Of a stretch of 60,447 nucleotides of DNA, positions 29,948-60,447 are shown piece by piece. Source of the DNA: a virus; the IMG/VR virus record IMGVR_UViG_3300017773_000009, positions 1-60,447 of that record; one strand, given 5' to 3'. The notes below the pieces were generated by a model that was not told where the DNA came from, did no database searches, and worked only from the letters and a program-made list of their open reading frames with translations. The number at the start of each line of letters is the position of its first letter. Positions within the stretch are counted from its first letter, which is position 1. The translations under genes were made by a program, and so were the position numbers.

Positions 29948-29977
29948 TTGTTAAAAGAAACAAAATTCGTATATTTG
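29948..29977 (+). promoter_or_regulatory. Candidate early promoter (TTG-N19-TATATTTG), near-leaderless
   Basis: TTG at 29948-50 and TATATTTG at 29970-77. ATG at 29981. Confidence 0.55.
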
Positions 29978-30473: not shown

Positions 30474-30772
30474 TGTCAGATAAACTAAAAAGAGCAAGGG
30501 CAACAATGAAGAGGTTAGGTCTTAGTGGATTTAACAAAGCAAAGAGGACACCATCACACCCAAAGAAGTCTCACATAGTGATGGCAAAAGAGGGTGATAA
30601 AACTAAACTAATAAGGTTTGGTGAGCAGGGTGCCTCAACAGCAGGTAAACCTAAATCTGGTGAGTCCTCAAAGATGAAGAAGAAAAGGGCATCATTCAAA
30701 GCAAGACACAGGAGGAATATACTCAAGGGAAAAATGTCTGCTGCATACTGGGCAAATAAAGTCAAGTGGTAA
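30473..30772 (+). CDS. Small highly basic protein (99 aa)
   Basis: K/R-rich. C-terminus is FKARHRRNILKGKMSAAYWANKVKW. Confidence 0.5.
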   Translation: MSDKLKRARATMKRLGLSGFNKAKRTPSHPKKSHIVMAKEGDKTKLIRFGEQGASTAGKPKSGESSKMKKKRASFKARHRRNILKGKMSAAYWANKVKW

Positions 30773-31830: not shown

Positions 31831-31993
31831 TGCTAGGTCTGGTATCTAGTAATGTTCACTTTTCAAACTTTAACTTTCAAAATCTGACGTTTTTAGACAA
31901 TTTCAGCACGACATTTTTGATGATTTTGGTGCCAATTTGATATGTTTTTGAAATTAATTTGTATCTAGTAAATGAATTTTTATTTAAATTTAT

Positions 31994-32025
31994 TTGGAAA
32001 TTAAAGTTCAATGTTTGTATATTTG
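31994..32025 (+). promoter_or_regulatory. Candidate promoter (TTG-N21-TATATTTG) for the ribozyme-punctuated early operon
   Basis: TTG at 31994-96 and TATATTTG at 32018-25. About 360 nt upstream of the first ORF. Confidence 0.5.
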
Positions 32026-43413: not shown

Positions 43414-43485
43414 AGACCTATAGTTAAATGGATATAATAAAACTCTCCTAAAGTTTAGTTGCAGGTTCGACTCCTGCTAGGTCTA
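43414..43485 (+). tRNA. tRNA-Arg (anticodon CCU)
   Basis: Acceptor AGACCUA/UAGGUCU. U8. D arm GUUA-AAUGGAUA-UAAU with GG and A20. Anticodon arm AAACU-CUCCUAA-AGUUU (U33, CCU, A37). 4-nt variable loop. T arm GCAGG-UUCGACU-CCUGC. Discriminator A. No encoded CCA. Confidence 0.85.
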
Positions 43486-43499
43486 CAAAATTATTTAAT

Positions 43500-45817: not shown

Positions 45818-46118
45818 CTTCGTAATTTACAGTTAGTATCACATCAGTTCCTGCTGATGCTTTAGCAAAAATACTGTTTTTATGTTCTACAAACAAATCA
45901 TTCGACTCGTCTATAATGCTAATTGATACTTGTGCTGGTAAATTAAAAGTTATAAATGTAGTTTTTGAATCTTTCGTACCCTGTTCAATAGTAATAAGTC
46001 TAGATGTGGTAGCGTTTGTGTTTGTTAAAAACATGTTAGTAACTTTTGTACCACCCCTTGATAATGACCTAAATATTTTTGTTGATGTAGTTGAAAGTGT
46101 ATGTTGTGAGTTTATCAT
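45810..46118 (-). CDS. Hypothetical beta-rich protein (102 aa), tail-fibre-associated by position
   Basis: Complete ORF downstream of the fibre gene. Confidence 0.4.
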   Translation of the reverse strand: MINSQHTLSTTSTKIFRSLSRGGTKVTNMFLTNTNATTSRLITIEQGTKDSKTTFITFNLPAQVSISIIDESNDLFVEHKNSIFAKASAGTDVILTVNYEDV

Positions 46119-48166: not shown

Positions 48167-48613
48167 TTATAAATTTATTAAAACTAAATCTGTTTTTATT
48201 TCTTTCAAGAAAGAGCTAACATTAAATCCCTCTGAATCATATCCAGAAACCTTACTGTATCCTACAATATTTAGGTCTGGGAACCTTAACAACATATACT
48301 TTATATATATTCCTAAAGATTTTTTTTGTGCTCTAGATATAGTGTTCCTTGTAAAGCCATTGACCACACCACCAACATAAGCAATGTGTCTAGAGTTATT
48401 CTTTAGGTTTTCATAATCCTCTTTGTATATCCAGTTGTCTATCCTTTTAGGATTGTACTGCACTAAAGACTCTATTGTTCCATCAAGTTTTATAACATCT
48501 TGAAAAGAACATATCTTTAAATCTTCATCATCAGCATGAGATTTAGCTATAGAGCCTCCTGATATATTAAAATCTTCTTCAGTCAAAGTAGAGTGTATTA
48601 CTAAATTTTTCAC
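48167..48613 (-). CDS. Amidase_2 (T7-lysozyme/PGRP)-like protein with apparently substituted zinc ligands (148 aa)
   Basis: The family layout is present: VIHSTLT, VIKLDGTI, SRHIAYVGG, NTISRAQKKSL, FPDLNIVGYS, SEGFNV. The usual GH(R/S)D histidine reads GYSK, and the C-P-x-F cysteine reads E-G-F-N. Confidence 0.5.
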   Translation of the reverse strand: MKNLVIHSTLTEEDFNISGGSIAKSHADDEDLKICSFQDVIKLDGTIESLVQYNPKRIDNWIYKEDYENLKNNSRHIAYVGGVVNGFTRNTISRAQKKSLGIYIKYMLLRFPDLNIVGYSKVSGYDSEGFNVSSFLKEIKTDLVLINL

Positions 48614-49068
48614 TATCCTATATCATCATATATTATTACAACCTCTTCACCCCTATCTAAAGCATCTGCTATTATAGGATATATCCTTTTGTACGCTTGA
48701 CCAGAGTTTCCCACAAACCCATCTCTTGCGATAATGTTGTTTGTTTGCGTATCTCCAACGATAAGGCAGCCACTAGTGTGTTCATCAGTATTCCCAGTAT
48801 GTATAAGAATATACTCAAAGCCAGGAACATTAGTGATATGAAGCATGCCACGATGAAAATCACCATACCTTTTAGTGTATTTCTTATGGAACCCTCCTTC
48901 TTTTCTGTACTTGATTTCATATTCTCCTTTTGGTATTCTGGTTTCGTGCATTACTTTTTCATCTCTAGCTTCATCCTCTAGAGTGTAGCAAGCAAACTTG
49001 TCATTAATAAATAACAAACCATTTGTAGAGTCTTCTCCACTACTAAACCTTAATACTGTTAGTTCCAT
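48613..49068 (-). CDS. DUF5675-like / L,D-transpeptidase-fold cell-wall enzyme candidate (151 aa)
   Basis: GLLF..F.CYTLED...RIPKGEY...LHITNVPGFEYILIHTGNTDEHTSGCLIVG carries the H...(S/T)GC catalytic-type motif of YkuD-fold enzymes. Confidence 0.5.
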   Translation of the reverse strand: MELTVLRFSSGEDSTNGLLFINDKFACYTLEDEARDEKVMHETRIPKGEYEIKYRKEGGFHKKYTKRYGDFHRGMLHITNVPGFEYILIHTGNTDEHTSGCLIVGDTQTNNIIARDGFVGNSGQAYKRIYPIIADALDRGEEVVIIYDDIG

Positions 49069-49166
49069 TAATATTTTTTCTTGTAAGTATTTTTCTTCTT
49101 ACTTACCTTAACCTTTTTCATTTTGTTAGCAGCCTTTGGCTTACTTTTTGTTTTGTTTTTATACAT
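49068..49166 (-). CDS. Possible 32-aa extremely basic micro-ORF (MYKNKTKSKPKAANKMKKVKVSKKKNTYKKKY)
   Basis: Fills the only gap in the lysis block. Its stop overlaps the next ATG as TAATG. No other support. Confidence 0.25.
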   Translation of the reverse strand: MYKNKTKSKPKAANKMKKVKVSKKKNTYKKKY

Positions 49167-49575
49167 CTTTCTCTTTTTTTTGTGAGCTCCCTCCAAAGAA
49201 GAAGTCGATTATTGTGTTTACTTTTGCTGACATTGCTCCAAAGATAGTAGAAATAAAACTAATTTCAAACTCTCCCATGTCAATACTACCACTAACAAAG
49301 TGTTGAAACATTACAAAGCTAATACCAAAATAAGCTACAGTAAATAAAGTTGCTAGAACTTTTTGTATAATAGCATCATCTTTGTACATATCTCTAGCAG
49401 ACTTTCTATCCTCTACCTCTTTTGCAAATGCTTCTTTCTCTGCTTCTAGTAGTAGTTTTTTAAGCTGTAATTTAGCTTCTTCTCTCTCTTTATCTGTTGT
49501 GATAACTTTATCTAATATACCCTCAGCATTATCTACTACCTTACCAAGTATACCACCTAATAAATTATTTATCAT
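49159..49575 (-). CDS. Holin candidate (138 aa; N-terminal amphipathic/coiled region plus two C-terminal TM helices)
   Basis: VLATLFTVAYFGISFVMFQHFV and ISFISTIFGAMSAKVNTIIDFFFG. The architecture resembles the GTA-type holin family. Adjacent to the hydrolase-like genes. Confidence 0.55.
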   Translation of the reverse strand: MINNLLGGILGKVVDNAEGILDKVITTDKEREEAKLQLKKLLLEAEKEAFAKEVEDRKSARDMYKDDAIIQKVLATLFTVAYFGISFVMFQHFVSGSIDMGEFEISFISTIFGAMSAKVNTIIDFFFGGSSQKKEKDV

Positions 49576-49849: not shown

Positions 49850-50091
49850 TCTTCTGGATTATCTAAGTTGCATGATGGTTGTTCTTGTTCTTCTAAAGAC
49901 TTGCACCAAGATTCAAAAAACTTATCATCATCTAATTTATTTTCTTTTACTTTGTTTCGTACAGCATCAGCCATGATACAAGCACAAGTTATTAAATTTC
50001 TTTCACAATCGCAATTTACATTTTTGTTTTCCATCTGTTCGTTGTTCATATTTCTAGTATAATCGTAATAGTATTTACTTTTTTTTATCAT
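49828..50091 (-). CDS. Cys-rich small protein (87 aa)
   Basis: NCDCERNLITCAC...SWC...PSCNLDNPEECENCGS. Confidence 0.45.
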   Translation of the reverse strand: MIKKSKYYYDYTRNMNNEQMENKNVNCDCERNLITCACIMADAVRNKVKENKLDDDKFFESWCKSLEEQEQPSCNLDNPEECENCGS

Positions 50092-50480
50092 GCTCTTCTT
50101 ACTCTCTTAGCTATTCTCTTTGTGTATTTTGCTTTTTGACTACCAGACTTAGAGGCACTCCTTTTCCTCTTATTAGTGGCTGCCTTTTCTGATTTACTTA
50201 AAGATTCTCTAACCTTCTTTGGTAAGTATCTTCCTCTCTTAGCTCTTGGTTTTTTCTCATCACCCTTAGTGACATAACCCCATTTTTGTTTTGTCCACTT
50301 AGACAGCTTGTTACTAGATGATTTCTTACCCTTGTAACCACCACCAGCTTTCTTATACCTAGCAACAGCTAATTGTGCCTTACGAGCAGACCACTGTCCA
50401 GCTCTACCACCCTTACTACCAGCCTTTACTCTGGCAACAATTCTTTTCCATAATCCTGGTTTTGTTTTCTTAGCTGACAT
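50088..50480 (-). CDS. Highly basic Lys/Arg-rich protein (130 aa)
   Basis: GLWKRIVARVKAGSKGGRAGQWSARKAQLAVARYKKAGGGYKG. K/R-rich throughout. Confidence 0.5.
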   Translation of the reverse strand: MSAKKTKPGLWKRIVARVKAGSKGGRAGQWSARKAQLAVARYKKAGGGYKGKKSSSNKLSKWTKQKWGYVTKGDEKKPRAKRGRYLPKKVRESLSKSEKAATNKRKRSASKSGSQKAKYTKRIAKRVRRA

Positions 50481-52462
50481 TATTTTATTATTACTTTAGT
50501 AGTTATACTCAAATCATTTTTATTTACTTTAATTAAATAAAAACCTCTCTCTAACTCCACGTCTGAAATATTTTTATCTTTATAGACAATCTCTCCTAAA
50601 TTATTATAAACTATAATATCTACTATAGATTTAAAACTAATCAATCCACTTGAAGGATTTGGGAATGGTATTATTCCCATTCTTTCAAACGAAGTTATAT
50701 CTGTAGGACCTGACCAGCCATCTACACAGTAGGCATATAATCCATCACACCCATCATCCCATGTTGTATTACAGCAGTATGGGTCTACCTGTATCACCCA
50801 CTCAAAACATGTATTAGGAATGTAGTATACATTACCAGAATTACAGCCAGCAGAATAATAACAGGATGAGTCTGACATATTAGCTTCTGAATTATAGTTA
50901 ATAGCGTTGACATCAGTGCAGCCAAACAAAGGATAAACACAAGACCCATTATCAGTATTTGCATTATCATTATAATTAATTGCTGTGCTGTCTGTACATC
51001 CATAATAAAAAGGTATGCAATTACCATTATCTATATTTGCTTCTGAGTTATAATTAAACATTGTGTTATCTGTGCAACCATAAACAACGTCTATGCAAGA
51101 GTTGTCGTTAACATTAGCTAGTGGATTGTAGTTAAATGCTTCAGAGTCAGTACAACCTAAGACTGGTAGTATGCAACTACCATCATCAGTATTAGCTAAA
51201 GAATCATAGTTAAGAGCCTCAACAATCATACACCCCTCTATTACAGCTATACAAGTGTCAGGTACATTTGCATTAGGATTGTAGTTAAATGCTAGTTCAT
51301 TCATACAGCCTTCTACAACAGCAATACAAGAATTTTCTAGCTCTACGTTTGCCTCAGGGTCAAAGTTTAGTGCTTCTTCATCCATGCAACCTAATACTAT
51401 TAAAGTCTCACAAGTTTCATCGTCAAAGTCTGCGTCTTCATTGTACTCTAAATATATTGGATTAGTGCAGCCTAAAACATAATAGCAGCTTTCATCGTCT
51501 GTATTGGCAAGAACATTATAATTTAATGATGTATCATCTGTGCAACCATAAATTCTTTCTATACACTCATCACCACAATAAGGCATTCCATTAACTATTA
51601 CAAAAGGAACTATAGGACTAGCAAATCCTCCTGGAGCATCAATGGCTACGTGCTCCTCAGAGTATACACTATACCCACATTGTACTGATGTAAACTGAGA
51701 CTGTTGCGTTATGTTAAACTTAACACTAATAGGTTCTGATATGCTTAACTCAAATGTAAACGTAGTATCAAAACCATCATCAAGAGTAAATATGCCTAGA
51801 AAGTTATTGCCTTGAAACACTTGTAGATATGCTCCAGCCCAACCATTACCAGCTAAATCTGTTAGTTCAAGCGTATGTGTACAACTATCTATTAGTATAT
51901 CTGTGTTAGCTGAATCTATATAATTATAAGCTAAAGAGTCAGTACAGCCAAATACTTTTTCTGTAAAACACATCCCTGTATCTATTGTTGCTATTGGTAG
52001 GAACTCTAAAAAGCTATCATCCATGCAGCCAAATATAGGTGGAGGGGGAGCACAATCTTCTACTGTAAATCCATGATAAGAAGCAAATCCAAAATTGGCT
52101 GAATCCATTTCAACTAAAGTATCATTACATCTTACTAAATAGTATGAGCCATCTTGTCCACCCCATAAACTGCCTTGCATACCATCTCCATATCCATCAC
52201 TTATCACAAAATCGTAATCACCATTAGGTAGGCATAGCTGTGTAACTTGAGGTGAATAATCAACTATATTATCGTAGGGACCACCAGTAACTACTGTATC
52301 TAAGTTATCATCTAATATAGCCCAAGAAGTTTCTTCTGGGTATTGGTCTGGATTAATAACTATATCTAGATACGTACCATTAGGACATTGAGCAAATGCT
52401 GAAGCCATGGTAAAAACCACAACCATTATAAAAGCGTATAAAAATTTAGTAAAGTTGTTCAT
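50480..52462 (-). CDS. Secreted Cys-repeat protein with a T9SS (Por) C-terminal sorting domain (660 aa)
   Basis: Signal peptide MNNFTKFLYAFIMVVVFTMASAFAQ. 11 copies of G-C-(T/M)-D-x3-(A/L)-x-N-(Y/F)-(N/D)-x3-A-(N/D)-x-D-(D/N)-x-S-C. The C-terminus IIPFPNPSSGLISFKS...YNNLGEIVYKDKN...ERGFYLIKVN...TTKVIIK is typical of T9SS CTDs. Confidence 0.75.
   Translation of the reverse strand: MNNFTKFLYAFIMVVVFTMASAFAQCPNGTYLDIVINPDQYPEETSWAILDDNLDTVVTGGPYDNIVDYSPQVTQLCLPNGDYDFVISDGYGDGMQGSLWGGQDGSYYLVRCNDTLVEMDSANFGFASYHGFTVEDCAPPPPIFGCMDDSFLEFLPIATIDTGMCFTEKVFGCTDSLAYNYIDSANTDILIDSCTHTLELTDLAGNGWAGAYLQVFQGNNFLGIFTLDDGFDTTFTFELSISEPISVKFNITQQSQFTSVQCGYSVYSEEHVAIDAPGGFASPIVPFVIVNGMPYCGDECIERIYGCTDDTSLNYNVLANTDDESCYYVLGCTNPIYLEYNEDADFDDETCETLIVLGCMDEEALNFDPEANVELENSCIAVVEGCMNELAFNYNPNANVPDTCIAVIEGCMIVEALNYDSLANTDDGSCILPVLGCTDSEAFNYNPLANVNDNSCIDVVYGCTDNTMFNYNSEANIDNGNCIPFYYGCTDSTAINYNDNANTDNGSCVYPLFGCTDVNAINYNSEANMSDSSCYYSAGCNSGNVYYIPNTCFEWVIQVDPYCCNTTWDDGCDGLYAYCVDGWSGPTDITSFERMGIIPFPNPSSGLISFKSIVDIIVYNNLGEIVYKDKNISDVELERGFYLIKVNKNDLSITTKVIIK
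50858..51550 (-). repeat. Nine tandem ~25-27-aa GCTD...NYN...AN.D.GSC repeats (coding)
   Basis: Repeat glycines at residues 306, 331, 358, 385, 410, 436, 462, 488 and 514 of the 660-aa protein. Two more copies lie at residues 144-194. Confidence 0.85.
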
Positions 52463-52797
52463 TAGAATTTACTTATTATAAGTTCATCAATATAATTTTG
52501 TATTTCTTTTTTAGTAGCAACCATTTTAAAGCTAATGTCTGCTTGAAATCTTTTTACTTCTTCTCCATCATCAAACACTACTATCGTTGGAACAATAGCT
52601 ATTTCGTATTTAGTTTGATTGTTATCTTCTTCTATTAATAGAGTTTGTTTATCGCATTCTTTTAGTTTTGAAAACCAAACAACATCATTAGATGAATTAA
52701 AGTCTGCATTAAAATGTATTGCTTCTATTTGAGCAAAAGCACCATTAGAAAACAATATTAATATGTAACTAAAAAATATTTTCCAGATTGCTTTCAT
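52462..52797 (-). CDS. Secreted thioredoxin-fold protein lacking the CxxC motif (111 aa)
   Basis: Signal peptide MKAIWKIFFSYILILFSNGAFAQ. ...YEIAIVPTIVVFDDGEEVKRFQ matches the Trx cis-Pro/beta region. The active-site position reads FNADFNSSN. Confidence 0.5.
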   Translation of the reverse strand: MKAIWKIFFSYILILFSNGAFAQIEAIHFNADFNSSNDVVWFSKLKECDKQTLLIEEDNNQTKYEIAIVPTIVVFDDGEEVKRFQADISFKMVATKKEIQNYIDELIISKF

Positions 52798-53072
52798 TAT
52801 TTTAGTGCGTCAATTTTATCTTCCATTCTAATCATACGCTCTTCTAGCTTTTCCACATTACGCTCTGTGTTCTTAATAGACTGTCGTATATTAACATCCT
52901 TCATGTCAAACTCCATTTTAGAAATTTCAGGTTCTGGAAGTTCTTTAGCTTCAGCTATATCTGCTTGCAGAGAAAACCACATTCCTATTAGTGTTGCCAT
53001 TGCAAATCCAACACCTATTAGTGTTTGTATACTTATTTTAAAGCTTGTATTCTCGCTTAGTTCTTTTGCCAT
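52797..53072 (-). CDS. Membrane-anchored coiled-coil protein (91 aa; i-spanin-like architecture)
   Basis: One TM (LIGVGFAMATLIGMWFSL) followed by a charged helical segment (NTERNVEKLEERMIRMEDKIDALK). Confidence 0.45.
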   Translation of the reverse strand: MAKELSENTSFKISIQTLIGVGFAMATLIGMWFSLQADIAEAKELPEPEISKMEFDMKDVNIRQSIKNTERNVEKLEERMIRMEDKIDALK

Positions 53073-53074
53073 TA

Positions 53075-54109
53075 CTAAAAAATTCTATAGTTTATTCCAA
53101 ATTTAAAATCATACCACTCTCTATCCCAATACTTATTATACTTACCTTCAATAAAGCAACCCACATTTTTATTCACTTTATATCCAAATATTAATCCTCC
53201 TGAATAGTCATACCACTGTTCTCCATCATTAAAGTTGTGATATGAATATGCCTCGCCATCATCATAATGATAAGGCATTAGATTACCCCATGTGTGTAGC
53301 CAAAAATTTTTTTTATAGTGATAGAAATCAAACCCAACAACTAACGAATACTGCCACTGGTTATCTAGTTCACTCCTTTTCTTTTCTACATAATCCTCTA
53401 GAACTTGAGGGATAACAACATTATTCCAGATAGAAGCGTTTTCAGCAACTAAGCTACCATCTGGAGCTCTATATTCAGATTCGTATACATCTACGCTATA
53501 ACCTTCTTCAATCGCTAAACAAGTATAGTGTAGCTCTCCAGATAAAATTAACCACTCCTCTAGTGGGTCATAACCATAAGGCTCTGCAAGTCTTTGTACA
53601 GCTCCTAAATTAAAAGATAGTTTTTTCTTTCCATTAATTCTTAACCTCTGTGTTGCTTCGTAATATTCTATATCTGCAAATCCTTCTTTAACATATTGTA
53701 CTTTTGTAAACCACAATGGTTTAACATATCTAAGAAAGTGATGTTGGTCTAGATACTCTATTCCCTCTTGTCTCCTGTAATCTATTTCAAACAGGTATTC
53801 AAATGATGCCCTTCCTATATTAGCAGCATCAGAGAAAGAAGTTTCTGTACCATCTTTAAATGGTGATGTACCTTCGTACTGAAACCTTTGTATCTTCCTA
53901 ATCCCCATAGACAATGAATAATCAAATGGGGTAAATACTGTGTCGTAAAGTAATGTGCTTTTGTCTACAGAATAAATATTTTTATCTGCTAAAGATGTTC
54001 CACCATTAGCAGCCACATAAAATGTAGAAAACTTAAAGACTTTCTTAATTTGTGCGTTTGTCTCAAGTGTATAAGATAGTAATATGAAAATTAAAAAAAA
54101 TAGACGCAT
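53075..54109 (-). CDS. Outer-membrane beta-barrel-like protein (344 aa from ATG 54109; the ORF track starts at TTG 54115)
   Basis: Signal peptide MRLFFLIFILLSYTLETNAQ. Alternating aromatic/beta pattern and a C-terminal ...FGINYRIF ending in Phe. Confidence 0.55.
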   Translation of the reverse strand: MRLFFLIFILLSYTLETNAQIKKVFKFSTFYVAANGGTSLADKNIYSVDKSTLLYDTVFTPFDYSLSMGIRKIQRFQYEGTSPFKDGTETSFSDAANIGRASFEYLFEIDYRRQEGIEYLDQHHFLRYVKPLWFTKVQYVKEGFADIEYYEATQRLRINGKKKLSFNLGAVQRLAEPYGYDPLEEWLILSGELHYTCLAIEEGYSVDVYESEYRAPDGSLVAENASIWNNVVIPQVLEDYVEKKRSELDNQWQYSLVVGFDFYHYKKNFWLHTWGNLMPYHYDDGEAYSYHNFNDGEQWYDYSGGLIFGYKVNKNVGCFIEGKYNKYWDREWYDFKFGINYRIF

Positions 54110-54112
54110 GTG

Positions 54113-54143
54113 CAAATATACTATTTTAATTCCTTTTTAACAA
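54113..54143 (-). promoter_or_regulatory. Candidate promoter (TTG-N20-TATATTTG, minus strand); the -33 element lies inside the end of the giant ORF; near-leaderless OMP transcript
   Basis: caaatata at 54113-20 and caa at 54141-43 on the plus strand. ATG at 54109. Confidence 0.45.
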
Positions 54144-57100
54144 CTTTTCTCAACTCATAATCATATATGTAGTCTCCAGTGGATACTTGCTGTATTGCTT
54201 CTCTCTCAACATCAGAAACTACATACTTCCTAAATATGGAATTTATTTCTGAAGTAGTTACAATACCAAGCTGTGCAGCAATCATTAAGTTTGATGCCAC
54301 TTTTTGTAGTTCTGAATTACTTACATTCCTATGAGATGGTATTATTGGAAATGCCTGTCCTATATACATTGATATTTGATTTCTCTTTCCAATATATATA
54401 TCTTTCTCTGCTGGCATCTTAGTCATCTTGTAAGCTCTATTAGAGTTCATCCCTAACTCTTCTAGATTTACCCTATGATTATATAGTGTTGAAAATGTTT
54501 CCTGTAACTTTTCGTTTGCTTTTTCTAAAGCATTGTCTTTCTGACTGTTGCTAACATCATCCTTACCTGCTACATCATAATACAATCTAGAGTTTAGCTT
54601 TGAATCATCAACAGCATCTTGCACCCTAAAGTAGTATTGTTTCTCTGCATTTAACTGTGATATTCTAACACCACCAAATGTAGAAACTAACTCTTTAAGC
54701 AAGTCTTTATCAGGGTCAGCCATCTTCATGAAAGATTTTACTGTACCAGGAGTTAATACTTTAGCTATATGATTAAATCCTTTTACAGCAATACTTCCTG
54801 GGTCATCAGTTTCATTATATATTGGATTACCATAGCCATCTCTGTTTGAATTAACTTCTAGTATAGCTTCTGTTACAGGCTCCATACCTAAGAATGGGTC
54901 AAATGTTTCTCTTAAAAACTCCATTACAGAATCTTCTTCTCCAGAAACCATGTTAAATAAAGTTTTACCAGACTTCTTAATATGAGCATATGGGTCAAGA
55001 GAACTAAAGTCGAAGTAGTAAACATTACCATCTTCAAACTCTACAGGTACTAGGTCTGAATTTCTAGACCATGGTGCAACCTCTAGCTGTAGTGCTTCTG
55101 TTTTTTCTTCATCCCAATCAGGTAATAGATTTCTCACAGCAGCAGCGATTAATGTAGCAAGTGAACTGGCAGTTAATAATCCAACAGCTCTTCTTTTACC
55201 CATACCACTAACTACCTCATTATCAGACTTAATCATCTTAGGAGTGTTTGATATATGATTTATAGTGTTTCTAGCCATCTCTGAAACAAACGATGGGAAT
55301 GTACCAACAAGAGGGAACTTTCTAATCTCTTTAATAGCATGTGGTATTTTACTATATGTTGGCATATGATTCAACACATCGTCAGAAGCCATCTTATCTA
55401 TCTGCTCTTCTGTAGCGTTAGGATACGCTTTAGTATAATCTTGTTTAAGATTGTAAAAAGCAAATATTTTCCAGTAATCATCTTCTGCCTGATACGCTTT
55501 CTGTGCTATGTTAGAAGCTCCTTGAGTAACTAGTTTAGCTTTATTAGTAAACATCTTTGTTGTAGGAATCTCTTCACCCATAGTATCGTTGATGATAGCC
55601 TTCAATTCACCACTGTAAGCTCCATCTCTTATCACTCCAAGTTGAATTAATTTTCTCAACTCAGACTCATTCCACCTTCCATCAGTTTTTAATTTATCAA
55701 ACATATACTTGTGAGAGTTTATGTTAAATGGATTGATACCAAAAGAACCAACAACTAGTGTGTTAGATAAGAAGTTTCTAATATGCGTTTGAACACTTAG
55801 TATCGTTGCTCCATACTTAAACATGTAGTTTGCAGTCATTAAAGATTGCATCAACATACCATTTTGATTTGGCTCTGATGTAAACATTTTAATAACCTCA
55901 GCAAACTCAGGTGTTGTGTATAGTGCCTGCCCTTGAGTTAGTGGGTAATACTGACTATACTTAGTTGACTCTTCTTTGCTAATTCTTTTTGGGAACTTTT
56001 GACTATCATATTTGTCAGAAAGAAATCCTTCTTGGAAACCTATCTCTCTTAATCCAGATAAAAATTTACTCTGCTCTATTATGTGTATTAGTTTAGAAGA
56101 TGTTTTATAGAAGTTTGATACTGGGTCTTTAGATTCTCCCATAACATCTCTCATCCAAGTAGGAATATCTTTCCTTCTTTTAAATGATTTAACATCCCTC
56201 TTAAGTAAATCTTTAGCTCTGAAGAAAGCAAGTGGATTATTACCAATCCCTTTCATCTCTGCAAATACTTCGTTTAATATTTCTGTGGCAGCATTTTCTG
56301 TAAGCTCTATACCCATCTCATCGTAAGATTTTCTTAATTGATATACAGCGTTATTCCAAACTTCAGGAGCTACCTCATAGTTTGGGTTTTCAAAAACATC
56401 ATAAGTTCTGTTTACATACACCCCAATATTACTAGCAACAACAGCCTCTAAATCTCCCTGAACCATACCCTCATCAATCAAGTGTTGAGAAAGCGAGTCA
56501 ATATAATCTCTCATCCCTACAATAGATTCTTGTATACTTGGAGGTAACATTTCTACCAACTCATAAGTTCCTGTTAATGATGAGTTTATAGCTTCAAGAG
56601 TTTCTTTATCTAACTCTTTACCATACTCTTTTTCTACAGCTATCTGAAACTTATCAACAATGTTTTCAACATCAAACATCTTTGCTTTTGTTTCGTTAAG
56701 TTTCTTAATACTAGCCTCGTAAGTTTTCTTACTCATCAAGCCTCTAGTAGTAAAGTTCTTCTTAAACTGTAGTTTAGCATTAGTGCCATTGAAACTAAAG
56801 AACCCATTGTCTTGAATCCTTATGTTGTCCATGTGTATCTGTAGTGGAGGAAGCTTAGACTCTTTAGCCCTTAGAGATATTGCACCAAGCAATGCTCCAT
56901 TCTTTGTGTATCCACCAAGCTTTTTATTTCTCTGTGCTGTATCACCTTCAAAGTATTGCTCTCCCTCAGATGTAAGTGCGTAATTCATTAAGTTAGAAAT
57001 GTTTACTCCAGCCTCTGTATTTATTCCTAAAAACTCTCCATTGATTGTAATTGGATAGCCAGGATGTATTTGTTCTCCTCTAGGATTTTGTGAGTCTATT

Positions 57101-60100
57101 TTACCTACACTCATGATTGTTCCTCTTGGAACCTTTGTCAATTCATTCTTTGTGTTTTCAGACTTCAAAGGCATTGACTTTTCTAGTGTTAAGTCTAACA
57201 TTTTAGATATATTAGGAAACCCTTTATACTCTCCAGTCTCAAACTTAGCATTAGGGTTCTTAACTTCCAATACTCCTGCTGCACCCATAGAGTCCATAAA
57301 GTCTCTACGAACATCATAGGTTCCATTATCTATTAATAAACTTCTTAAGTCTTCAATAGAATTTATAGTTGAACCATGTATTTTAGCAAATCTTTTATTC
57401 CCAGTCTTTGTAGTTTGATTTATCTTTTCATTTATAAAAGAAATTGCTTCTATTTTGGTAAGCTCTCCTCTCTGTATAGACTCTTCTAACTCAAGAATAT
57501 ATAGGTTAGCAAACTCTTGGTTACCCCTGTGAGATATAGGACCTTGAGAAACAATAACCATGTACATATCTTTTGTCTTATATGCCATGTTCATAAACGA
57601 ACTAAAAGCAGCATCTGTTGTAGATGCCCATAGAGCATTCTTATCAGCATACTTTTTACCAAACAAAGGACCACCATTTATATCTACCTGAATATTAGAA
57701 CCTTCTCTATATCCAGTATATACTCCAGTTCCCATTAGGTCTCCAGGAACAACAAGTATTAGCTTACCCTCTAGTTCTTGTAGGTTAAATATTGGTAATC
57801 CACCAAACTTAGATTCTTTTGGTTTAGAATATCCAACCCTTTCAAAGAATCCTTCTGGAACTTCTGCAAGTCCAAATGGTTGTCCCTGTGGTGTGTCTCC
57901 CAACATATCCATCTTAGACTCTCTTGGCTCTCTAGATTTAAAATCTATATCTTCTATAACAATATCCTCAATAAATTCTGATGGCATATTTCCATTTCTA
58001 TCCATGTAGTCTTTACTGAAATCACTCTTCATGAATCCAGTCATAGGATTAAATCCTTCTACATTTCTTAAATAAAATTTACTCTTATCAAAGAACCATC
58101 TTGGAATAGTTATCCTAGTTACATCATCTATCTCTTGTATGTTTGCTATAGATTTTGGAAGGTAGTTAAACTTGTAACTTCTTTCCTTAGACCTATCTTC
58201 AGAATACTTAATTGCTTTTCCTGATGCAGTTTCCCCATGTAATCTATCTGAGCTTATCTCAAATGTCATTGGGTCATTCTTAATCTTGTCGTATCTTTCG
58301 TTATACTCTTGCTGTGCTTTCTCCCAAAGTTCTCTTTGTATCTGGAACTTTTTAGATGAGTCTTGCATTTGTTTTAACAAGTCGTACTTAGATGTTATCT
58401 GTGATGAAGATAATCCCTTATCACGACCATACATCATCTTCCATCCAGTCATCTTAGAAAACTTAACTGTCTTACCAGTCTTCTTTTCTACTGCCTCAAA
58501 AGCTTTGTCTTGTGGGTTTGTTTTAGCAACATTCTTAGCGTAAACTAGCCCACCTATTTGAATTACTTCATCAGCATGTAGAACAGGCATGCCATCAGCT
58601 CTATCATAGAAGTACGAGTGCCTAAAAGGATTCATACCTATTTGAGACCAAGTATCATCGTTTATTATAGATGCTATAAAGTCCATAGCATTCTGTCCCT
58701 GCTCTTGTGGTGTTGCCCCCTCTATTGGAGACCACTCACCCTGCATCCTAGCAATGGTAGCCTTACCCATTCTCTTACCACCTGGCTTTAATTCAGCATG
58801 CCTAGCAATATTCATGGCAACTACAGGGTTAGATGTGAAGTCTACATTCTTTATCTTAGCAACATTACTGTATGACAAAGGTGCACCAGTAGTACCACCC
58901 TCATGTACAGTGATAGCCCATATATTACTATTAGTGTAAGCAGGTATATCTAATCTTAATCCAACTGATTTACCTTCCTCAAACTGTAGGTTTATCTTAC
59001 CCTCAGATTTTACACCAACAGCAGTAGATATATCTTCAGCTTTTGCTGGCTCAATAAAATCTATAATTGGTTTGATTGGACTGTATTGATTTACTGTAGC
59101 AAGATATTCTTCTTGTGTAATCTCTTCGTTATAGTATGCTTCAGCAGCATCTCTAACAATGTTATTTCTTTCTGTTATAGCCCTGTCTCCTCTACCTATT
59201 TTAGATGGTGACCACTGAAGTTTTGATTCTTTAACATTAAGTTTTTCAGTAAACAAAGAGGAGTCTGTAAATATTATGCTTTTTTCTTGAGTGTCTTCAG
59301 TCATGTCTAACAAGGCGTTTCTTCTCTGCTCTTCTGTAAGGTTCAATCTTCTTTCTACATTTCTAGATTCAACCTCACCATAATTTGAATAATAAGCCAT
59401 ATAAGCAGCTACATTAGTGCCATCTTCTTTACGAAGATTATCTAGCTCTGATGCTTGGCGTTCTAATCTATTTCTTCTTTCTGTTAAAGAATTAATCTCA
59501 GATTGAGTAATGCTGCCACTATTTTCTATTTCCCTAGTTATCTTAGCTATAGAGCTATCAATCTCACTTAAAGCACTAGATGGACTGCTTCCACCTTCAA
59601 AATTTTCTATATCTTGAATGTAATGCTGTACTTCATGAATCAAAGTCTGCCTAACCAACTCTTCTGTAGAACCCCTTCCCACCTCTAATACTATCTGAGG
59701 AAGATTGTCTGGAGTATACAATCCATTATAAGAGCCTCCAACCTCTCCTTCCTGAAGGTAACTATCTTTCTTTACTAAGACATTTATTTTGTTTATATCT
59801 TGTAAGGTACCAGCAAAATCACCTGTGCCATATAGCTCAGTAAGTTCACCTAAGTTAGCTAATTCAGTAAGCTTTACAATATCGCCAGACTTAATACTTT
59901 CAATATCTTTCTTTAGACTAAGTGGCATCAATTCATATCTCCACTGACCATCTTTTCCAAGCTCCCACCCTGTCTGTCTCTTTATTAAAAGTGGGTCTTG
60001 ATTTTCTTTTGTCATCTGCTTGGCAAGAATGTAATTATCAAGCCTTAGATTATCAAGATTAGCACGAACTCCTATTACAGAACTTTTTGGTCTTATAGGT

Positions 60101-60447
60101 CCTTCAATCTCTATCTCTTGTTCTTCTTGTACAACAACAGGGGTATTGACTAAATTACCAAAGTCATAACCAATACTATACTTAAACGCACCATCTCCTA
60201 ACTGAATTGTGCTGAAGTAATTGTTCATACCTTGGTCAGTTACTATCGCACCAGTGGTAGGTTCCATCTTACCAATATTCTCACCACTTGTATATATCAT
60301 ACCAACACTGTGAGCTACAGACTCTTGACCATATTTAGTTCCAAAGTATATAGCATCAGCTATAGTCATTCCCTTAACAAAGAAAGACTTCTCTGACCTA
60401 TCATACATTCCATCTATAGATATTGGATTGTATCCTCTTTGTATAAG
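54121..60447 (-). CDS. C-terminal part of the giant 3318-aa virion/ejection-type polyvalent protein (continuation of 3748..1)
   Basis: The frame is open from the stop at 54121-23 to the window edge. The listed start M at 60408 is internal (residue 1224). HExxH motif LIHEVQHYIQD at 59623-59637 is followed by YGEVESRNVERR. The protein is long and largely helical. Confidence 0.85.
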   Translation of the reverse strand, partial: LIQRGYNPISIDGMYDRSEKSFFVKGMTIADAIYFGTKYGQESVAHSVGMIYTSGENIGKMEPTTGAIVTDQGMNNYFSTIQLGDGAFKYSIGYDFGNLVNTPVVVQEEQEIEIEGPIRPKSSVIGVRANLDNLRLDNYILAKQMTKENQDPLLIKRQTGWELGKDGQWRYELMPLSLKKDIESIKSGDIVKLTELANLGELTELYGTGDFAGTLQDINKINVLVKKDSYLQEGEVGGSYNGLYTPDNLPQIVLEVGRGSTEELVRQTLIHEVQHYIQDIENFEGGSSPSSALSEIDSSIAKITREIENSGSITQSEINSLTERRNRLERQASELDNLRKEDGTNVAAYMAYYSNYGEVESRNVERRLNLTEEQRRNALLDMTEDTQEKSIIFTDSSLFTEKLNVKESKLQWSPSKIGRGDRAITERNNIVRDAAEAYYNEEITQEEYLATVNQYSPIKPIIDFIEPAKAEDISTAVGVKSEGKINLQFEEGKSVGLRLDIPAYTNSNIWAITVHEGGTTGAPLSYSNVAKIKNVDFTSNPVVAMNIARHAELKPGGKRMGKATIARMQGEWSPIEGATPQEQGQNAMDFIASIINDDTWSQIGMNPFRHSYFYDRADGMPVLHADEVIQIGGLVYAKNVAKTNPQDKAFEAVEKKTGKTVKFSKMTGWKMMYGRDKGLSSSQITSKYDLLKQMQDSSKKFQIQRELWEKAQQEYNERYDKIKNDPMTFEISSDRLHGETASGKAIKYSEDRSKERSYKFNYLPKSIANIQEIDDVTRITIPRWFFDKSKFYLRNVEGFNPMTGFMKSDFSKDYMDRNGNMPSEFIEDIVIEDIDFKSREPRESKMDMLGDTPQGQPFGLAEVPEGFFERVGYSKPKESKFGGLPIFNLQELEGKLILVVPGDLMGTGVYTGYREGSNIQVDINGGPLFGKKYADKNALWASTTDAAFSSFMNMAYKTKDMYMVIVSQGPISHRGNQEFANLYILELEESIQRGELTKIEAISFINEKINQTTKTGNKRFAKIHGSTINSIEDLRSLLIDNGTYDVRRDFMDSMGAAGVLEVKNPNAKFETGEYKGFPNISKMLDLTLEKSMPLKSENTKNELTKVPRGTIMSVGKIDSQNPRGEQIHPGYPITINGEFLGINTEAGVNISNLMNYALTSEGEQYFEGDTAQRNKKLGGYTKNGALLGAISLRAKESKLPPLQIHMDNIRIQDNGFFSFNGTNAKLQFKKNFTTRGLMSKKTYEASIKKLNETKAKMFDVENIVDKFQIAVEKEYGKELDKETLEAINSSLTGTYELVEMLPPSIQESIVGMRDYIDSLSQHLIDEGMVQGDLEAVVASNIGVYVNRTYDVFENPNYEVAPEVWNNAVYQLRKSYDEMGIELTENAATEILNEVFAEMKGIGNNPLAFFRAKDLLKRDVKSFKRRKDIPTWMRDVMGESKDPVSNFYKTSSKLIHIIEQSKFLSGLREIGFQEGFLSDKYDSQKFPKRISKEESTKYSQYYPLTQGQALYTTPEFAEVIKMFTSEPNQNGMLMQSLMTANYMFKYGATILSVQTHIRNFLSNTLVVGSFGINPFNINSHKYMFDKLKTDGRWNESELRKLIQLGVIRDGAYSGELKAIINDTMGEEIPTTKMFTNKAKLVTQGASNIAQKAYQAEDDYWKIFAFYNLKQDYTKAYPNATEEQIDKMASDDVLNHMPTYSKIPHAIKEIRKFPLVGTFPSFVSEMARNTINHISNTPKMIKSDNEVVSGMGKRRAVGLLTASSLATLIAAAVRNLLPDWDEEKTEALQLEVAPWSRNSDLVPVEFEDGNVYYFDFSSLDPYAHIKKSGKTLFNMVSGEEDSVMEFLRETFDPFLGMEPVTEAILEVNSNRDGYGNPIYNETDDPGSIAVKGFNHIAKVLTPGTVKSFMKMADPDKDLLKELVSTFGGVRISQLNAEKQYYFRVQDAVDDSKLNSRLYYDVAGKDDVSNSQKDNALEKANEKLQETFSTLYNHRVNLEELGMNSNRAYKMTKMPAEKDIYIGKRNQISMYIGQAFPIIPSHRNVSNSELQKVASNLMIAAQLGIVTTSEINSIFRKYVVSDVEREAIQQVSTGDYIYDYELRKVVKKELK
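60330..60447. repeat. Second copy of the 118-bp assembly overlap (identical to 1..118)
   Basis: Exact identity by inspection. Confidence 0.95.

What the first reader, a model, noticed from the sequence alone, without database searches (positions are those of the whole stretch)
50480..52462. Phage-encoded cargo for the host type IX secretion system, built from 11 disulfide-type GCTD...NYN...DGSC repeats
The 660-aa protein has a cleavable signal peptide. It has two N-terminal modules with DxYPEETSW and DGYGDG-like motifs, 11 copies of a ~25-aa two-Cys repeat, and a C-terminal ~75 aa with the sequence character of a Por/T9SS sorting domain (PFPNPSSG...YNNLGEIV...GFYLIKV...KVIIK). T9SS is restricted to Bacteroidota and usually attaches its cargo to the cell surface. 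A lytic-looking phage that sends a large repeat protein to the host surface suggests superinfection exclusion, receptor masking, adhesion or biofilm modification, or decoy binding. The domain also fixes the host phylum.
Basis: partly seen in the sequence, partly recalled or inferred. Interest (0 to 1): 0.65.

Follow-up and report, generated by a model that had tools for sequence, protein, structure and literature searches.

The report
Phage-encoded type IX secretion cargo
An uncultured marine phage that infects Flavobacteria-type hosts carries a large repeat protein with the export tag of the host's type IX secretion system, and this gene sits in a conserved block of envelope-targeted genes shared by hundreds of related phages, so the phage very probably places its own protein on or outside the infected cell, for a purpose not yet known.

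Summary
ORF 50480-52462(-) encodes 660 aa. It has a signal peptide (AFA|Q), two beta-sandwich head modules, exactly 11 two-Cys repeats (2+9), a six-Cys domain and a C-terminal T9SS type A sorting domain. That domain scores 32.6 bits on TIGR04183 (cutoff 23). The predicted fold matches the NucA CTD bound in the F. johnsoniae T9SS (8glk_D, TM 0.71), and 55 of 57 homologues hit PF18962.

The window is a phage with TerL, portal and virion proteins. Its nearest cultured relatives all infect Flavobacteriia.

New here: the gene always travels with three other envelope-targeted genes. These are a 346-aa probable outer-membrane barrel, a 91-aa membrane-anchored coiled-coil protein and a 111-aa thioredoxin-like periplasmic protein. 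All four were present in 61/61 and 43/43 loci with enough flank. A sister lineage has the trio directly followed by a DUF5675 lysin candidate, with no cargo gene. The cargo therefore looks like an insertion into an older envelope or lysis block.

The head is conserved, the stalk length varies (about 6-14 repeats) and the CTD diverges fastest. This suggests surface display. The function (receptor masking, adhesion or lysis aid) is untested.

Phage-borne T9SS cargo has been noted before (Bellas 2020; de Jonge 2019). This family and its cassette are undescribed.

The parts
50480..52462 (-). T9SS cargo gene (660 aa; the stop codon is 50480-50482)
   Evidence: ORF list. TIGR04183 scores above cutoff. 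More than 120 full-length homologues at 46-78% identity. dN/dS 0.13-0.27 with dS >= 1 against 11 orthologues.
52391..52462 (-). Signal peptide, residues 1-24, with cleavage AFA|Q (Gln+1 is invariant in 57 homologues)
   Evidence: Sequence features and heuristic scan. Q25 is invariant. AF2 helix 3-23. Q-rule: PMC5837995.
52043..52390 (-). Head module A, residues 25-140 (DQYPEETSW ... DGYGDG; 4 Cys), a predicted beta-sandwich
   Evidence: AF2 pLDDT about 80 with beta strands. Mean pairwise column identity 0.72. No Pfam, PHROG or PDB match.
51881..52036 (-). Repeats 1-2, residues 143-194; always two copies in orthologues
51563..51880 (-). Head module B, residues 195-300 (invariant LTDLAGNGWAG; 3 Cys), a predicted beta-sandwich
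   Evidence: AF2. Identity 0.76, the most conserved region. Not homologous to module A beyond the motif.
50861..51553 (-). Repeats 3-11, residues 304-534: nine GC[TM]D..NYN..C units, the stalk of variable length
   Evidence: The motif count after module B ranges 7-15 in orthologues, where the window's type scores 10, which is 9 repeats plus one Cys pair of the next domain. The same repeat occurs in other marine proteins and in phage virion proteins.
50693..50851 (-). Six-Cys helical domain, residues 538-590 (CFEWVIQVDPYCC..WD..C..LY.YC)
   Evidence: All six Cys, W555, W568 and D569 are invariant. AF2 predicts helices but with low pLDDT. No known family matches.
50483..50677 (-). T9SS type A C-terminal sorting domain, residues 596-660
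   Evidence: TIGR04183 32.6 bits against a cutoff of 23. PF18962 in 55/57 homologues. Foldseek 8glk_D TM 0.71, rmsd 2.3 A, plus RgpB CTDs. PDB sequence profile hits 8glk_D and 8glj_D. It is the least conserved region, identity 0.43.
52462..52797 (-). sp111: a 111-aa secreted (GAFA|Q) thioredoxin-like protein without CxxC. Its stop overlaps the cargo start (TAATG).
   Evidence: (weak TIGR01068 hit, E 1.4e-3). Always linked to the cargo gene.
52797..53072 (-). tm91: a 91-aa protein with an N-terminal transmembrane helix and a charged C-terminal tail read as coiled-coil
   Evidence: Sequence. Family consensus. Only weak unknown-function PHROG hits. Always linked.
53075..54115 (-). b346: a 346-aa secreted (TNA|Q), aromatic-rich, beta-rich protein ending in Phe; a probable outer-membrane beta-barrel from an orphan family
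   Evidence: The AF2 model is low confidence (pLDDT 50.6). In the Foldseek top 50 nearly every hit is an outer-membrane beta-barrel, with FadL first (E 5e-3, TM about 0.3). No Pfam, NCBIfam or PDB-sequence match. Always linked.
48613..49068 (-). DUF5675 protein (candidate C82-like peptidoglycan peptidase or lysin). In most loci it is the next conserved gene after the cassette.
   Evidence: PF18925 at 112.6 bits and a weak Tlde1 hit. Present in 63/82 loci. Lysin candidate per bioRxiv 10.64898/2026.04.11.717860.
49159..49575 (-). Holin-like 138-aa membrane protein (a weak call)
   Evidence: phrog_3427 holin E 2.7e-4 and PF11351 E 6e-3, below cutoff. Median 88% identity across loci. It also occurs far from the cassette and in unrelated phage contexts.

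Best explanation
The ORF encodes a phage protein that uses the host's own export machinery. It would cross the inner membrane by Sec with signal peptidase I (cleavage AFA|Q, Gln then cyclised as in Bacteroidota). It would fold and form disulfides in the periplasm. Its type A C-terminal domain would then be recognised by the host T9SS translocon and the protein moved to the cell surface. There the CTD would be removed, and the protein either coupled to lipopolysaccharide or released.

The mature protein is built like a surface-displayed binder. It has a strongly conserved two-module beta-sandwich head and a stalk of small two-Cys units whose number differs between phages. A six-Cys domain sits next to the anchor end.

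The gene lies in the late, co-directional block between virion genes and lysin genes. It is translationally coupled to a fixed set of three other envelope proteins: a probable outer-membrane barrel, an inner-membrane-anchored coiled-coil protein and a periplasmic thioredoxin-like protein. The cargo gene was inserted into this older block, which ends with a DUF5675 lysin candidate.

What is shown: the domain identities, the export signals, the linkage, the purifying selection and the restriction to phages. What is inferred: actual T9SS-dependent export, surface attachment and late timing.

My committed guess for the role is that it alters the surface of the infected cell around the time of lysis. 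Most likely it binds a conserved envelope or surface component, so that progeny and competing phages adsorb less to the dying cell and its debris. Less likely, it helps breach or shed the outer membrane.

Sub-confidences: T9SS type A cargo 0.85; surface display rather than free release 0.5; receptor masking or anti-adsorption role about 0.3.
For: CTD:
- TIGR04183 is above cutoff and there is no type B hit.
- 55/57 homologues hit PF18962, and long variants score 42-46 bits.
- The predicted fold matches the NucA CTD in the SprA complex and the RgpB CTDs. The PDB sequence profile hits 8glk_D and 8glj_D.
- The Gly of the NNLGE loop (G623) and the K-V-I-I-K terminus are present, as in the functional motifs of PMC11285876.

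Export: a signal peptide with invariant Gln+1.

Host: TerL relatives infect only Flavobacteriia.

The gene is real and phage-specific:
- dN/dS is 0.13-0.27.
- 140 or more IMG/VR contigs carry it.
- Only 2 MAG contigs among 185,579 species genomes carry it.

Linkage:
- All four genes were present in 61/61 and 43/43 loci with sufficient flank.
- Stop and start codons overlap by one base.
- A cargo-less lineage has b346-tm91-sp111-DUF5675.

Display architecture:
- Head identity is 0.72-0.76 against 0.43 for the CTD.
- The stalk repeat number varies while the two repeats inside the head never do.

Plausibility of a role at the surface: Flavobacterium phage resistance maps to gliding and T9SS genes (10.1101/2020.10.02.323337; PMC9804748).
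Against: - No experiment, and no host is known.
- Pfam PF18962 is slightly below its gathering score for this particular sequence.
- The head modules match nothing known, so 'binder' rests on fold class and architecture only.
- A host-specific receptor blocker would be expected to vary with the host, yet the head is the most conserved part.
- Superinfection-exclusion genes are usually early genes, whereas this one sits in a late block with no own Bacteroidetes-type promoter motif.
- The trio exists without the cargo, so b346 is not simply a dedicated anchor for it.
- The same repeat occurs in virion proteins that lack a signal peptide, so disulfide formation in the periplasm is not required for the repeat to fold.
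Confidence: 0.55

Rival explanations
1. Lysis accessory. The trio b346-tm91-sp111 would be a Bacteroidota-style substitute for spanins, linking inner and outer membrane. The T9SS-delivered protein would then help to weaken, open or shed the outer membrane at the end of infection, for example by jamming or holding open the very large SprA channel or by binding lipopolysaccharide.
For: - The cassette sits directly upstream of the DUF5675 lysin candidate in most loci, and in the cargo-less lineage too.
- An amidase and a holin-like gene follow in the window.
- tm91 has the topology of an i-spanin: an N-terminal TM helix followed by a charged tail read as coiled-coil.
- No classical spanin pair was noticed in the block.
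- The genes lie in a late block and are translationally coupled.
- The conserved head fits a conserved envelope target.
Against: - No o-spanin-type lipoprotein is present, since neither sp111 nor b346 has a lipobox Cys.
- The 'holin' call is weak. That gene lies more than 10 kb away in some genomes and occurs in unrelated phages.
- Cargo-less phages apparently manage without the cargo.
- A 660-aa protein with 35 Cys and a variable stalk is an odd design for a membrane disruptor.
- The b346 model is low confidence.
Confidence: 0.2
2. A released soluble factor or adhesin of ecological use. The CTD would be cleaved and the protein set free, or displayed, to bind algal or particle polysaccharide or neighbouring cells. 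This would keep infected cells in dense host patches, or clear or bind extracellular polymer so that virions spread.
For: - Many flavobacterial T9SS cargoes are released enzymes or adhesins (own knowledge).
- Bellas et al. found glycoside hydrolases with T9SS CTDs in a phage (PMC7468147).
- The Asp/Gly-rich motifs of the head (DGYGDG..G..WGG.DG) look like calcium-binding loops of carbohydrate-binding beta-sandwiches (inference from the sequence).
- The head is conserved across phages with different backbones.
Against: - No catalytic or carbohydrate-binding family matches in Pfam, NCBIfam, PHROGs, PDB sequences or Foldseek.
- A stalk of variable length next to the anchoring end suggests display, not release.
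- The obligatory linkage to three envelope proteins is left unexplained.
Confidence: 0.15
3. Not secreted at all. On this reading it is a virion or tail-fibre protein whose C-terminal beta-sandwich merely resembles a T9SS CTD, or it is host DNA or a misassembly.
For: - The same GCTD..NYN repeats occur in large virion-like proteins of related phages and in a Synechococcus phage 'virion structural protein'.
- The gene follows a 2095-aa virion protein.
- Ig-like domains are common on virions (own knowledge).
Against: - It has a strong signal peptide with invariant Gln+1, shared with only two other ORFs, which are its neighbours.
- The CTD scores above the NCBIfam cutoff, and its best structural match is a CTD in the secretion complex.
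- No PHROG structural family matches.
- It is present in 140 or more viral contigs but in only 2 MAG contigs of 185,579 species genomes.
- Its position within phage late genes is conserved.
Confidence: 0.05

Closest known systems
Bacterial T9SS type A cargo proteins (e.g. F. johnsoniae NucA in PDB 8glk; P. gingivalis RgpB)
   Same: N-terminal Sec signal peptide with Gln+1. C-terminal domain of about 65 aa matching TIGR04183/PF18962, with a predicted Ig-like beta-sandwich that superposes on the NucA and RgpB CTDs. The Gly-containing loop and the Lys-containing C-terminal strand are present.
   Different: It is encoded by a lytic-looking phage, not by the cell. The passenger part (two orphan head modules, 11 two-Cys repeats and a six-Cys domain) matches no described cargo. 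Apart from two MAG contigs, it has no cellular homologue among 185,579 species genomes.
Phage-encoded T9SS CTD proteins noted in 'Cryophage' (Bellas et al. 2020, PMC7468147) and in crAss-like gut phages (de Jonge et al. 2019, PMC6949934)
   Same: Phage genes carrying a T9SS sorting domain, proposed to hijack the host system. All are bioinformatic observations without experiments.
   Different: Those cargoes are recognisable enzymes or BACON/PA14 proteins. They are highly variable 'flexible' genes. This family has an orphan passenger, is under strong purifying selection, is widespread in marine viromes and is locked into a four-gene cassette.
Cargo plus cognate outer-membrane partner gene pairs of the T9SS (SprB with SprF; PorP/SprF-like genes next to type B CTD cargo) - recalled from own knowledge
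   Same: A T9SS cargo gene invariably adjacent to a gene for a roughly 350-aa probable outer-membrane beta-barrel.
   Different: The CTD here is type A, not type B. b346 gives no hit in Pfam or NCBIfam, the libraries that would hold PorP/SprF models, and none to any PDB chain. The barrel trio also exists without any cargo gene.
Spanins (lambda Rz/Rz1) and phage lysis cassettes - own knowledge
   Same: tm91 has the i-spanin layout (N-terminal TM helix and a charged tail read as coiled-coil). The block adjoins lysin candidates and a holin-like gene.
   Different: There is no lipoprotein o-spanin. Instead there are an integral barrel candidate and a soluble thioredoxin-like protein. No spanin profile matched. 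A role in lysis is untested.
Phage T5 Llp and similar receptor-blocking envelope proteins - own knowledge
   Same: A phage-made envelope protein that could stop adsorption to infected cells and debris.
   Different: Llp is a small early lipoprotein that blocks one receptor. This is a large, late, T9SS-exported protein with a conserved head, and there is no sequence relation.

Membership tests
T9SS type A cargo (TIGR04183 / PF18962 CTD proteins) | C-terminal domain matching the type A sorting-domain profile above the curated cutoff | tested here: met
   TIGR04183 32.6 bits against cutoff 23, residues 600-660. Pfam 24.5 against 27 for this sequence, but 55/57 homologues match, best E 2.8e-12. 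Long variants score 42-46 bits.
T9SS type A cargo (TIGR04183 / PF18962 CTD proteins) | Compact Ig-like beta-sandwich fold of the CTD | tested here: met
   AF2 CTD pLDDT 80-89. Foldseek 8glk_D (NucA CTD in the SprA complex) TM 0.71, rmsd 2.3 A, probability 1.00. RgpB CTD entries 7pq4, 5ag8 and 5hfs also match. This is a prediction, not a solved structure.
T9SS type A cargo (TIGR04183 / PF18962 CTD proteins) | Functional motifs: the Gly at the start of strand beta4 (loop beta3-beta4) and the conserved C-terminal strand with Lys (PMC11285876) | tested here: met
   YNNLGEIV with G623 at least 90% conserved, and the terminal TTKVIIK. The correspondence was judged by inspection and by the HMM alignment to 8glk_D.
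T9SS type A cargo (TIGR04183 / PF18962 CTD proteins) | N-terminal Sec signal peptide (cargo must first reach the periplasm) | tested here: met
   n-h-c regions with A-F-A|Q, and Q25 invariant. Heuristic only, because no SignalP-type tool was available.
T9SS type A cargo (TIGR04183 / PF18962 CTD proteins) | Produced in a cell that has a T9SS | tested here: inconclusive
   The host is not known. All cultured TerL relatives infect Flavobacteriia. The Q-rule and the promoter motif point to Bacteroidota. One cassette-bearing contig was binned with a Sphingobacteriales MAG.
T9SS type A cargo (TIGR04183 / PF18962 CTD proteins) | Secretion depends on T9SS genes, and the CTD is cleaved by PorU | not testable with these tools
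   Needs expression in a wild-type host and in T9SS mutant hosts.
T9SS type B cargo (TIGR04131 / PF13585 CHU_C) | C-terminal type B domain | tested here: not met
   No such hit at E <= 1 in NCBIfam or Pfam.
PorP/SprF, PorV or FadL-type T9SS outer-membrane partners (for neighbour b346) | Match to a PorP/SprF-type family profile or to the PorV/FadL sequence or fold | tested here: not met
   No Pfam or NCBIfam hit for b346, for 48 family members or for 10 divergent members. No PDB sequence hit at E <= 10. The low-confidence model gives almost only outer-membrane barrels in Foldseek, with FadL first at TM about 0.3. That supports 'barrel' but not membership.
Two-component spanins (for neighbours tm91, sp111 and b346) | i-spanin: an N-terminal TM helix plus a periplasmic coiled coil. 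o-spanin: an outer-membrane lipoprotein with a lipobox Cys. | tested here: not met
   tm91 fits the i-spanin layout by inspection. However sp111 and b346 have signal peptidase I sites (..A|Q) and no lipobox. No spanin PHROG matched.
Thioredoxins (for neighbour sp111) | Trx fold with a CxxC active site | tested here: not met
   Only a weak partial TIGR01068 hit (18.7 bits against a cutoff of 96.8). The family consensus has WNxAN where WCGPC would be.

The most novel reading that the evidence does not exclude
The four genes (with the DUF5675 lysin candidate) would form a release system specific to phages of Bacteroidota. An inner-membrane coiled-coil protein, a periplasmic adaptor and an outer-membrane barrel would replace spanins. 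The T9SS-delivered head-on-a-stalk protein would be a second-generation add-on that uses the host's giant SprA channel or its LPS-attachment step to open, shed or coat the outer membrane at lysis. This would be the first case of a phage using a host protein secretion system as part of its exit (or anti-readsorption) machinery, and it is carried by hundreds of abundant marine phages.
Probability: 0.12. Interest if true: 0.85.

Novelty: new variant of a known kind. Interest (0 to 1): 0.55.

Why it matters
T9SS substrates build the surface coat, adhesins and enzymes of Bacteroidota, and in Flavobacterium phage resistance maps to T9SS and gliding genes. A phage family that is abundant in marine viromes keeps its own T9SS cargo under strong purifying selection. 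At least 140 IMG/VR contigs carry the cargo gene and at least 517 carry the linked barrel gene, and Tara sequences are among the hits.

That conservation gives a concrete, testable handle on how lytic phages reprogram the envelope of bloom-associated Flavobacteriia. The linked trio may also be a lead on how the outer membrane is disrupted at lysis; in these phages no classical spanin pair was noticed.

Practically, the CTD plus the Q-rule signal peptides are a host-phylum marker for uncultured viral contigs.

Tried and rejected
- Nucleotide search of 20 kb of the window against 50,697 phage records gave no match.
- Protein search of the cargo against cultured phages gave only repeat-level hits in Synechococcus phage S-CAM3 and a marine single-cell virus.
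- b346, the holin-like protein and the tm91/sp111 DNA had no match in cultured phages.
- PHROGs had no family for the cargo.
- Pfam, NCBIfam and PDB sequences gave nothing for the head modules, the repeats or the Cys-rich domain.
- Whole-chain Foldseek gave only the CTD as a significant PDB hit. The C2, galectin and MmpS-type hits to the head are low probability and were not used.
- Module A against module B by hhalign showed no homology.
- The AF2 model of b346 was poor (pLDDT 50.6), so its Foldseek result supports only the broad class 'outer-membrane barrel'.
- The exhaustive representative search for b346 found 350 clusters and no bridge to a known family.
- The idea that b346 is a dedicated PorP/SprF-like anchor for the cargo was weakened by the missing profile match and by the cargo-less lineage.
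- The idea that the whole block is a mobile 'lysis cassette' anchored on the holin-like gene was weakened. That gene is more than 10 kb from the cassette in some genomes, and it occurs next to GroEL/GroES-like genes in unrelated phages.
- The sigma-70 promoter and terminator scan was at chance level.
- Source names for homologues were all 'hypothetical protein'.
- PF26780, which is precomputed on two homologues, did not come up in the local Pfam scan that covered one of them and could not be named.
- Literature searches found no description of this family or cassette.


Full report
**1. The observation**

The minus-strand ORF 50480-52462 exists and encodes 660 aa. Its parts are as follows.
- A signal peptide, cleaved AFA|Q.
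- Head module A (residues 25-140) with DQYPEETSW and DGYGDG.
- Two two-Cys repeats (143-194).
- Head module B (195-300) with TDLAGNGWAG.
- Nine more repeats (304-534).
- A six-Cys domain (538-590).
- A C-terminal domain (596-660).

There are exactly 11 repeats, which no shuffle approaches: 11 observed against at most 1 in 2000 shuffles. They are old at the DNA level, since Tandem Repeats Finder sees nothing. Modules A and B are not detectably related apart from the D-x-x-G-(D/N)-G motif (hhalign probability 4%).

**2. The sorting domain**

- NCBIfam TIGR04183 (T9SS type A sorting domain) matches residues 600-660 at 32.6 bits, above its cutoff of 23. No type B model matches.
- Pfam PF18962 scores 24.5 bits against a gathering score of 27 for this sequence. 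It matches 55 of 57 full-length homologues, best E 2.8e-12, and scores 42-46 bits in long variants.
- An AlphaFold2 model built on 57 homologues has mean pLDDT 70.7, with 80-89 in the CTD. Its only significant PDB match is the CTD of NucA bound in the Flavobacterium johnsoniae T9SS complex (8glk_D: TM 0.71, rmsd 2.3 A). RgpB CTDs follow.
- A sequence profile of the family also finds 8glk_D and 8glj_D.
- The Gly-containing loop (NNLGE) and the Lys-containing C-terminal strand, shown to be needed for secretion in P. gingivalis (PMC11285876), are present.

The CTD is real.

**3. The replicon and its host**

The window is a phage. It encodes terminase large subunit, portal, several 'virion structural protein' families, primase/helicase, exonucleases and a 2095-aa polyvalent virion protein. 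No integrase was found among the ORFs scanned, which include every ORF of 225 aa or more.

It has no close cultured relative. The 93 phage records that share its terminase, at 38.5% identity or less, are dominated by phages of Flavobacterium (68) and Cellulophaga (15). Tenacibaculum and Maribacter phages and a few uncultured viruses make up the rest.

Only three real ORFs in the window carry signal peptides. All three expose Gln after cleavage, which is the Bacteroidetes Q-rule (PMC5837995). The Bacteroidetes promoter motif TTTG-N18-22-TAnnTTTG occurs 8 times against 2.7 expected, mostly at module boundaries. The host phylum is thus supported independently of the CTD.

**4. Distribution**

The protein belongs to a large, uncharacterised family that is essentially restricted to phages.
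- More than 120 full-length homologues at 46-78% identity lie on metagenomic contigs of up to 90 kb.
- At least 140 IMG/VR viral contigs carry it.
- Homologues occur in 'Virus NIOZ-UU157' and in 'uncultured virus' records. One of the latter is auto-named 'Secretion system C-terminal sorting domain-containing protein'.
- Some carriers have crAss-like markers. The window's own backbone resembles Cellulophaga podophages instead.
- Among 185,579 species-representative bacterial and archaeal genomes, only two MAG contigs match. One is a 63-kb contig binned with a Sphingobacteriales MAG. In the stretch fetched, it carries the cassette, DUF5675 and another gene shared with this phage.
- No source gives any name beyond 'hypothetical protein'.
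- dN/dS against 11 orthologues is 0.13-0.27 with saturated dS.

**5. The context is the main new result**

Upstream of the cargo gene, on the same strand and with one-base stop/start overlaps (TAATG), lie three genes.
- **b346** is 346 aa, secreted, aromatic-rich and ends in Phe.
- **tm91** has an N-terminal transmembrane helix followed by a charged tail that reads as a coiled coil.
- **sp111** is secreted and thioredoxin-like, but with WNxAN in place of WCGPC.

The linkage between these genes and the cargo gene is complete in both directions.
- In every one of 61 cargo-centred loci with at least 2.5 kb on both sides, all four genes are present on one strand. b346 lies upstream in 51 and downstream in 10.
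- In every one of 43 b346-centred loci with enough flank, the other three are present.
- The neighbouring virion genes are not conserved. The 2095-aa protein has a homologue in only 1-3 of 82 loci.

b346 is an orphan family, with 3469 hits in the first search and 350 clusters among 1.84 billion representatives. It has no Pfam, NCBIfam or PDB-sequence relative. Its AF2 model is poor (pLDDT 50.6). Even so, in its 50 best PDB matches nearly every hit is an outer-membrane beta-barrel, with FadL first. I therefore call it a probable barrel and no more.

The next conserved gene in most loci is a DUF5675 protein (63/82 loci). A 2026 preprint proposes this domain as a C82-like peptidase lysin. In the window an amidase and a weakly holin-like gene lie in the same run.

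A recurrent sister lineage of seven contigs has b346-tm91-sp111 directly followed by DUF5675 and the holin-like gene. It has no cargo gene, CTD or repeat anywhere in the fetched DNA. The cargo gene therefore sits at what is the sp111|DUF5675 junction in that lineage. The simplest reading is an insertion into an older envelope block, although loss in the sister lineage is not excluded.

The holin-like gene is less faithful. It is more than 10 kb from the cassette in some genomes and also occurs in unrelated phages.

**6. Anatomy and evolution of the protein**

Mean pairwise identity by region is as follows.

| Region | Identity |
|---|---|
| Module A | 0.72 |
| Module B | 0.76 |
| Repeats | 0.69-0.73 |
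| Cys-rich domain | 0.68 |
| CTD | 0.43 |
| Signal peptide | 0.48 |

- All alignable Cys are invariant.
- The two repeats inside the head never vary in number. The array between head and anchor varies from about 6 to about 14 units.
- Long variants duplicate module A and add a further Cys domain.
- Against two phages the head is nearly identical (dN 0.02-0.04, dS about 0.6) while the stalk and CTD are saturated. This points to recombination within the gene.
- The fast-evolving CTD fits the reported species incompatibility of CTDs (PMC11285876). On that view the tag tracks the host machinery while the head is shared.
- The repeat itself is a common marine extracellular unit. It occurs in proteins with type A or type B CTDs and SprB repeats on very large contigs. 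It also occurs in virion-like proteins of related phages and of a cyanophage that lack signal peptides.

**7. Mechanism**

*Shown:* Sec and T9SS targeting signals, linkage to three envelope proteins, purifying selection and phage restriction.

*Inferred:*
- Export by Sec, then periplasmic folding with about 17 disulfides.
- Recognition of the CTD by the host SprA/PorV machinery.
- Arrival at the surface, followed by CTD removal and either LPS attachment or release.
- Late expression.

The layout of a conserved head, a variable stalk and an anchoring tag is that of a displayed binder. My committed reading is a modification of the infected cell's surface around lysis that lowers adsorption of progeny and rival phages to the dying cell and its debris. 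This is plausible because flavobacterial phage resistance maps to T9SS and gliding genes.

The arguments against this reading are the head's conservation across phages and the late position of the gene. The main rival is a role in outer-membrane disruption together with the trio, acting as a spanin substitute. A released adhesin or polymer-binding factor is the next alternative. A virion protein or an artefact is unlikely.

**8. Relation to what is known**

It passes every membership test for a T9SS type A cargo that can be run in silico. Dependence on the T9SS itself cannot be tested here.

The general idea is not new. Bellas et al. (PMC7468147) reported T9SS-tagged hydrolases and a PA14 protein in a cryoconite phage and called it a unique occurrence. 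De Jonge et al. (PMC6949934) saw T9SS sorting domains in crAss-like gut phages.

What I could not find described in nine literature searches, of which bear on it:
- this passenger architecture;
- its abundance and conservation in marine viromes;
- the obligatory four-gene cassette;
- the cargo-less sister arrangement next to a lysin candidate.

I rate it a new variant of a known kind, of moderate interest. The interest would rise sharply if the cassette proves to be a T9SS-linked exit or anti-readsorption system.

**9. Limits**

- There is no host, no expression data and no localisation.
- No signal-peptide predictor was available.
- The head has no informative structural neighbour.
- The b346 model is unreliable.
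- The IMG/VR loci were the 80 best per scan, so divergent arrangements are under-sampled.

Noticed in passing
window 52462-54115 (-): Three further envelope-targeted genes (b346, a probable outer-membrane barrel; tm91, a TM plus coiled-coil protein; sp111, a thioredoxin-like protein without CxxC) are always linked to the cargo gene. Together with the cargo they are the only signal-peptide or TM export candidates in this block, and all secreted ones start with Gln after cleavage.
   Followed up: yes
L179/L239, L240-L244, L246 (e.g. L239:7956-10880): A recurrent lineage of viral contigs has b346-tm91-sp111 directly followed by DUF5675 and the holin-like gene, with no cargo gene, CTD or repeat. 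This suggests that the cargo gene was inserted at the sp111|DUF5675 junction, or lost there.
   Followed up: partly
window 48167-49575 (-): Putative lysis genes: an amidase (phrog_822), a DUF5675 protein with an H...SGC motif like L,D-transpeptidase (C82) enzymes, and a 138-aa holin-like protein. The last is unusually conserved (median 88% identity) and also occurs in unrelated phages beside GroEL/GroES-like genes (L191, L224), so it may not be a holin.
   Followed up: partly
L141:8056-11442, L147:8027-11020, L161:7697-11002: Long cargo variants (998-1130 aa) have a second module A, an extra Cys-rich domain, a divergent module B (GDAGGDGWGNSY), more repeats and a stronger CTD match (42-46 bits).
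   Followed up: partly
window 50480-52462 versus L003 and L012: Mosaic divergence within the gene. The head is nearly identical (dN 0.02-0.04, dS about 0.6), whereas the stalk and CTD are saturated at synonymous sites. This implies recombination that swaps heads or tags between phages.
   Followed up: partly
L031:362-4333, L051:369-4850, L024:3981-6806: Large virion-like proteins upstream of the cassette in other phages carry the same GCTD..NYN..DDGSC repeats but no signal peptide. The same repeat is annotated inside a Synechococcus phage S-CAM3 'virion structural protein'. It is unclear how a two-Cys unit folds in cytoplasm-made virion proteins.
   Followed up: no
window 54121-60408 (-): A 2095-aa polyvalent virion protein with an LPD23 domain. 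Its C-terminal third resembles proteomically annotated virion proteins of Cellulophaga phages phi19:3, phi18:3 and phi13:2, and a protein annotated as ADP-ribosyltransferase in a Pseudoalteromonas phage.
   Followed up: partly
window 30766-31449 (+): An ORF matching a PHROG annotated as alpha-2,3-sialyltransferase (E 4e-17). It is a possible glycan-modifying gene at the start of the early or replication block.
   Followed up: no
window 43414-43486 (+): A single tRNA-Arg (anticodon CCT).
   Followed up: no
window 23901-23931(-), 28261-28291(+), 29947-29977(+), 31993-32025(+), 45866-45897(-): Bacteroidetes-type promoter motifs (TTTG-N18-22-TAnnTTTG), 8 in the window against 2.7 expected, several of them at gene-module boundaries. 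The strand and GC-skew switches near 30 kb and 46 kb mark divergent transcription blocks.
   Followed up: partly
window 50088-50480 (-): A very basic 130-aa protein whose start overlaps the cargo stop (TAATG). It matches two unknown-function PHROGs. A 129-aa protein in L001, upstream of the cassette, carries DUF6321 and may be related; that link was not tested. It is present in only a few related loci.
   Followed up: no
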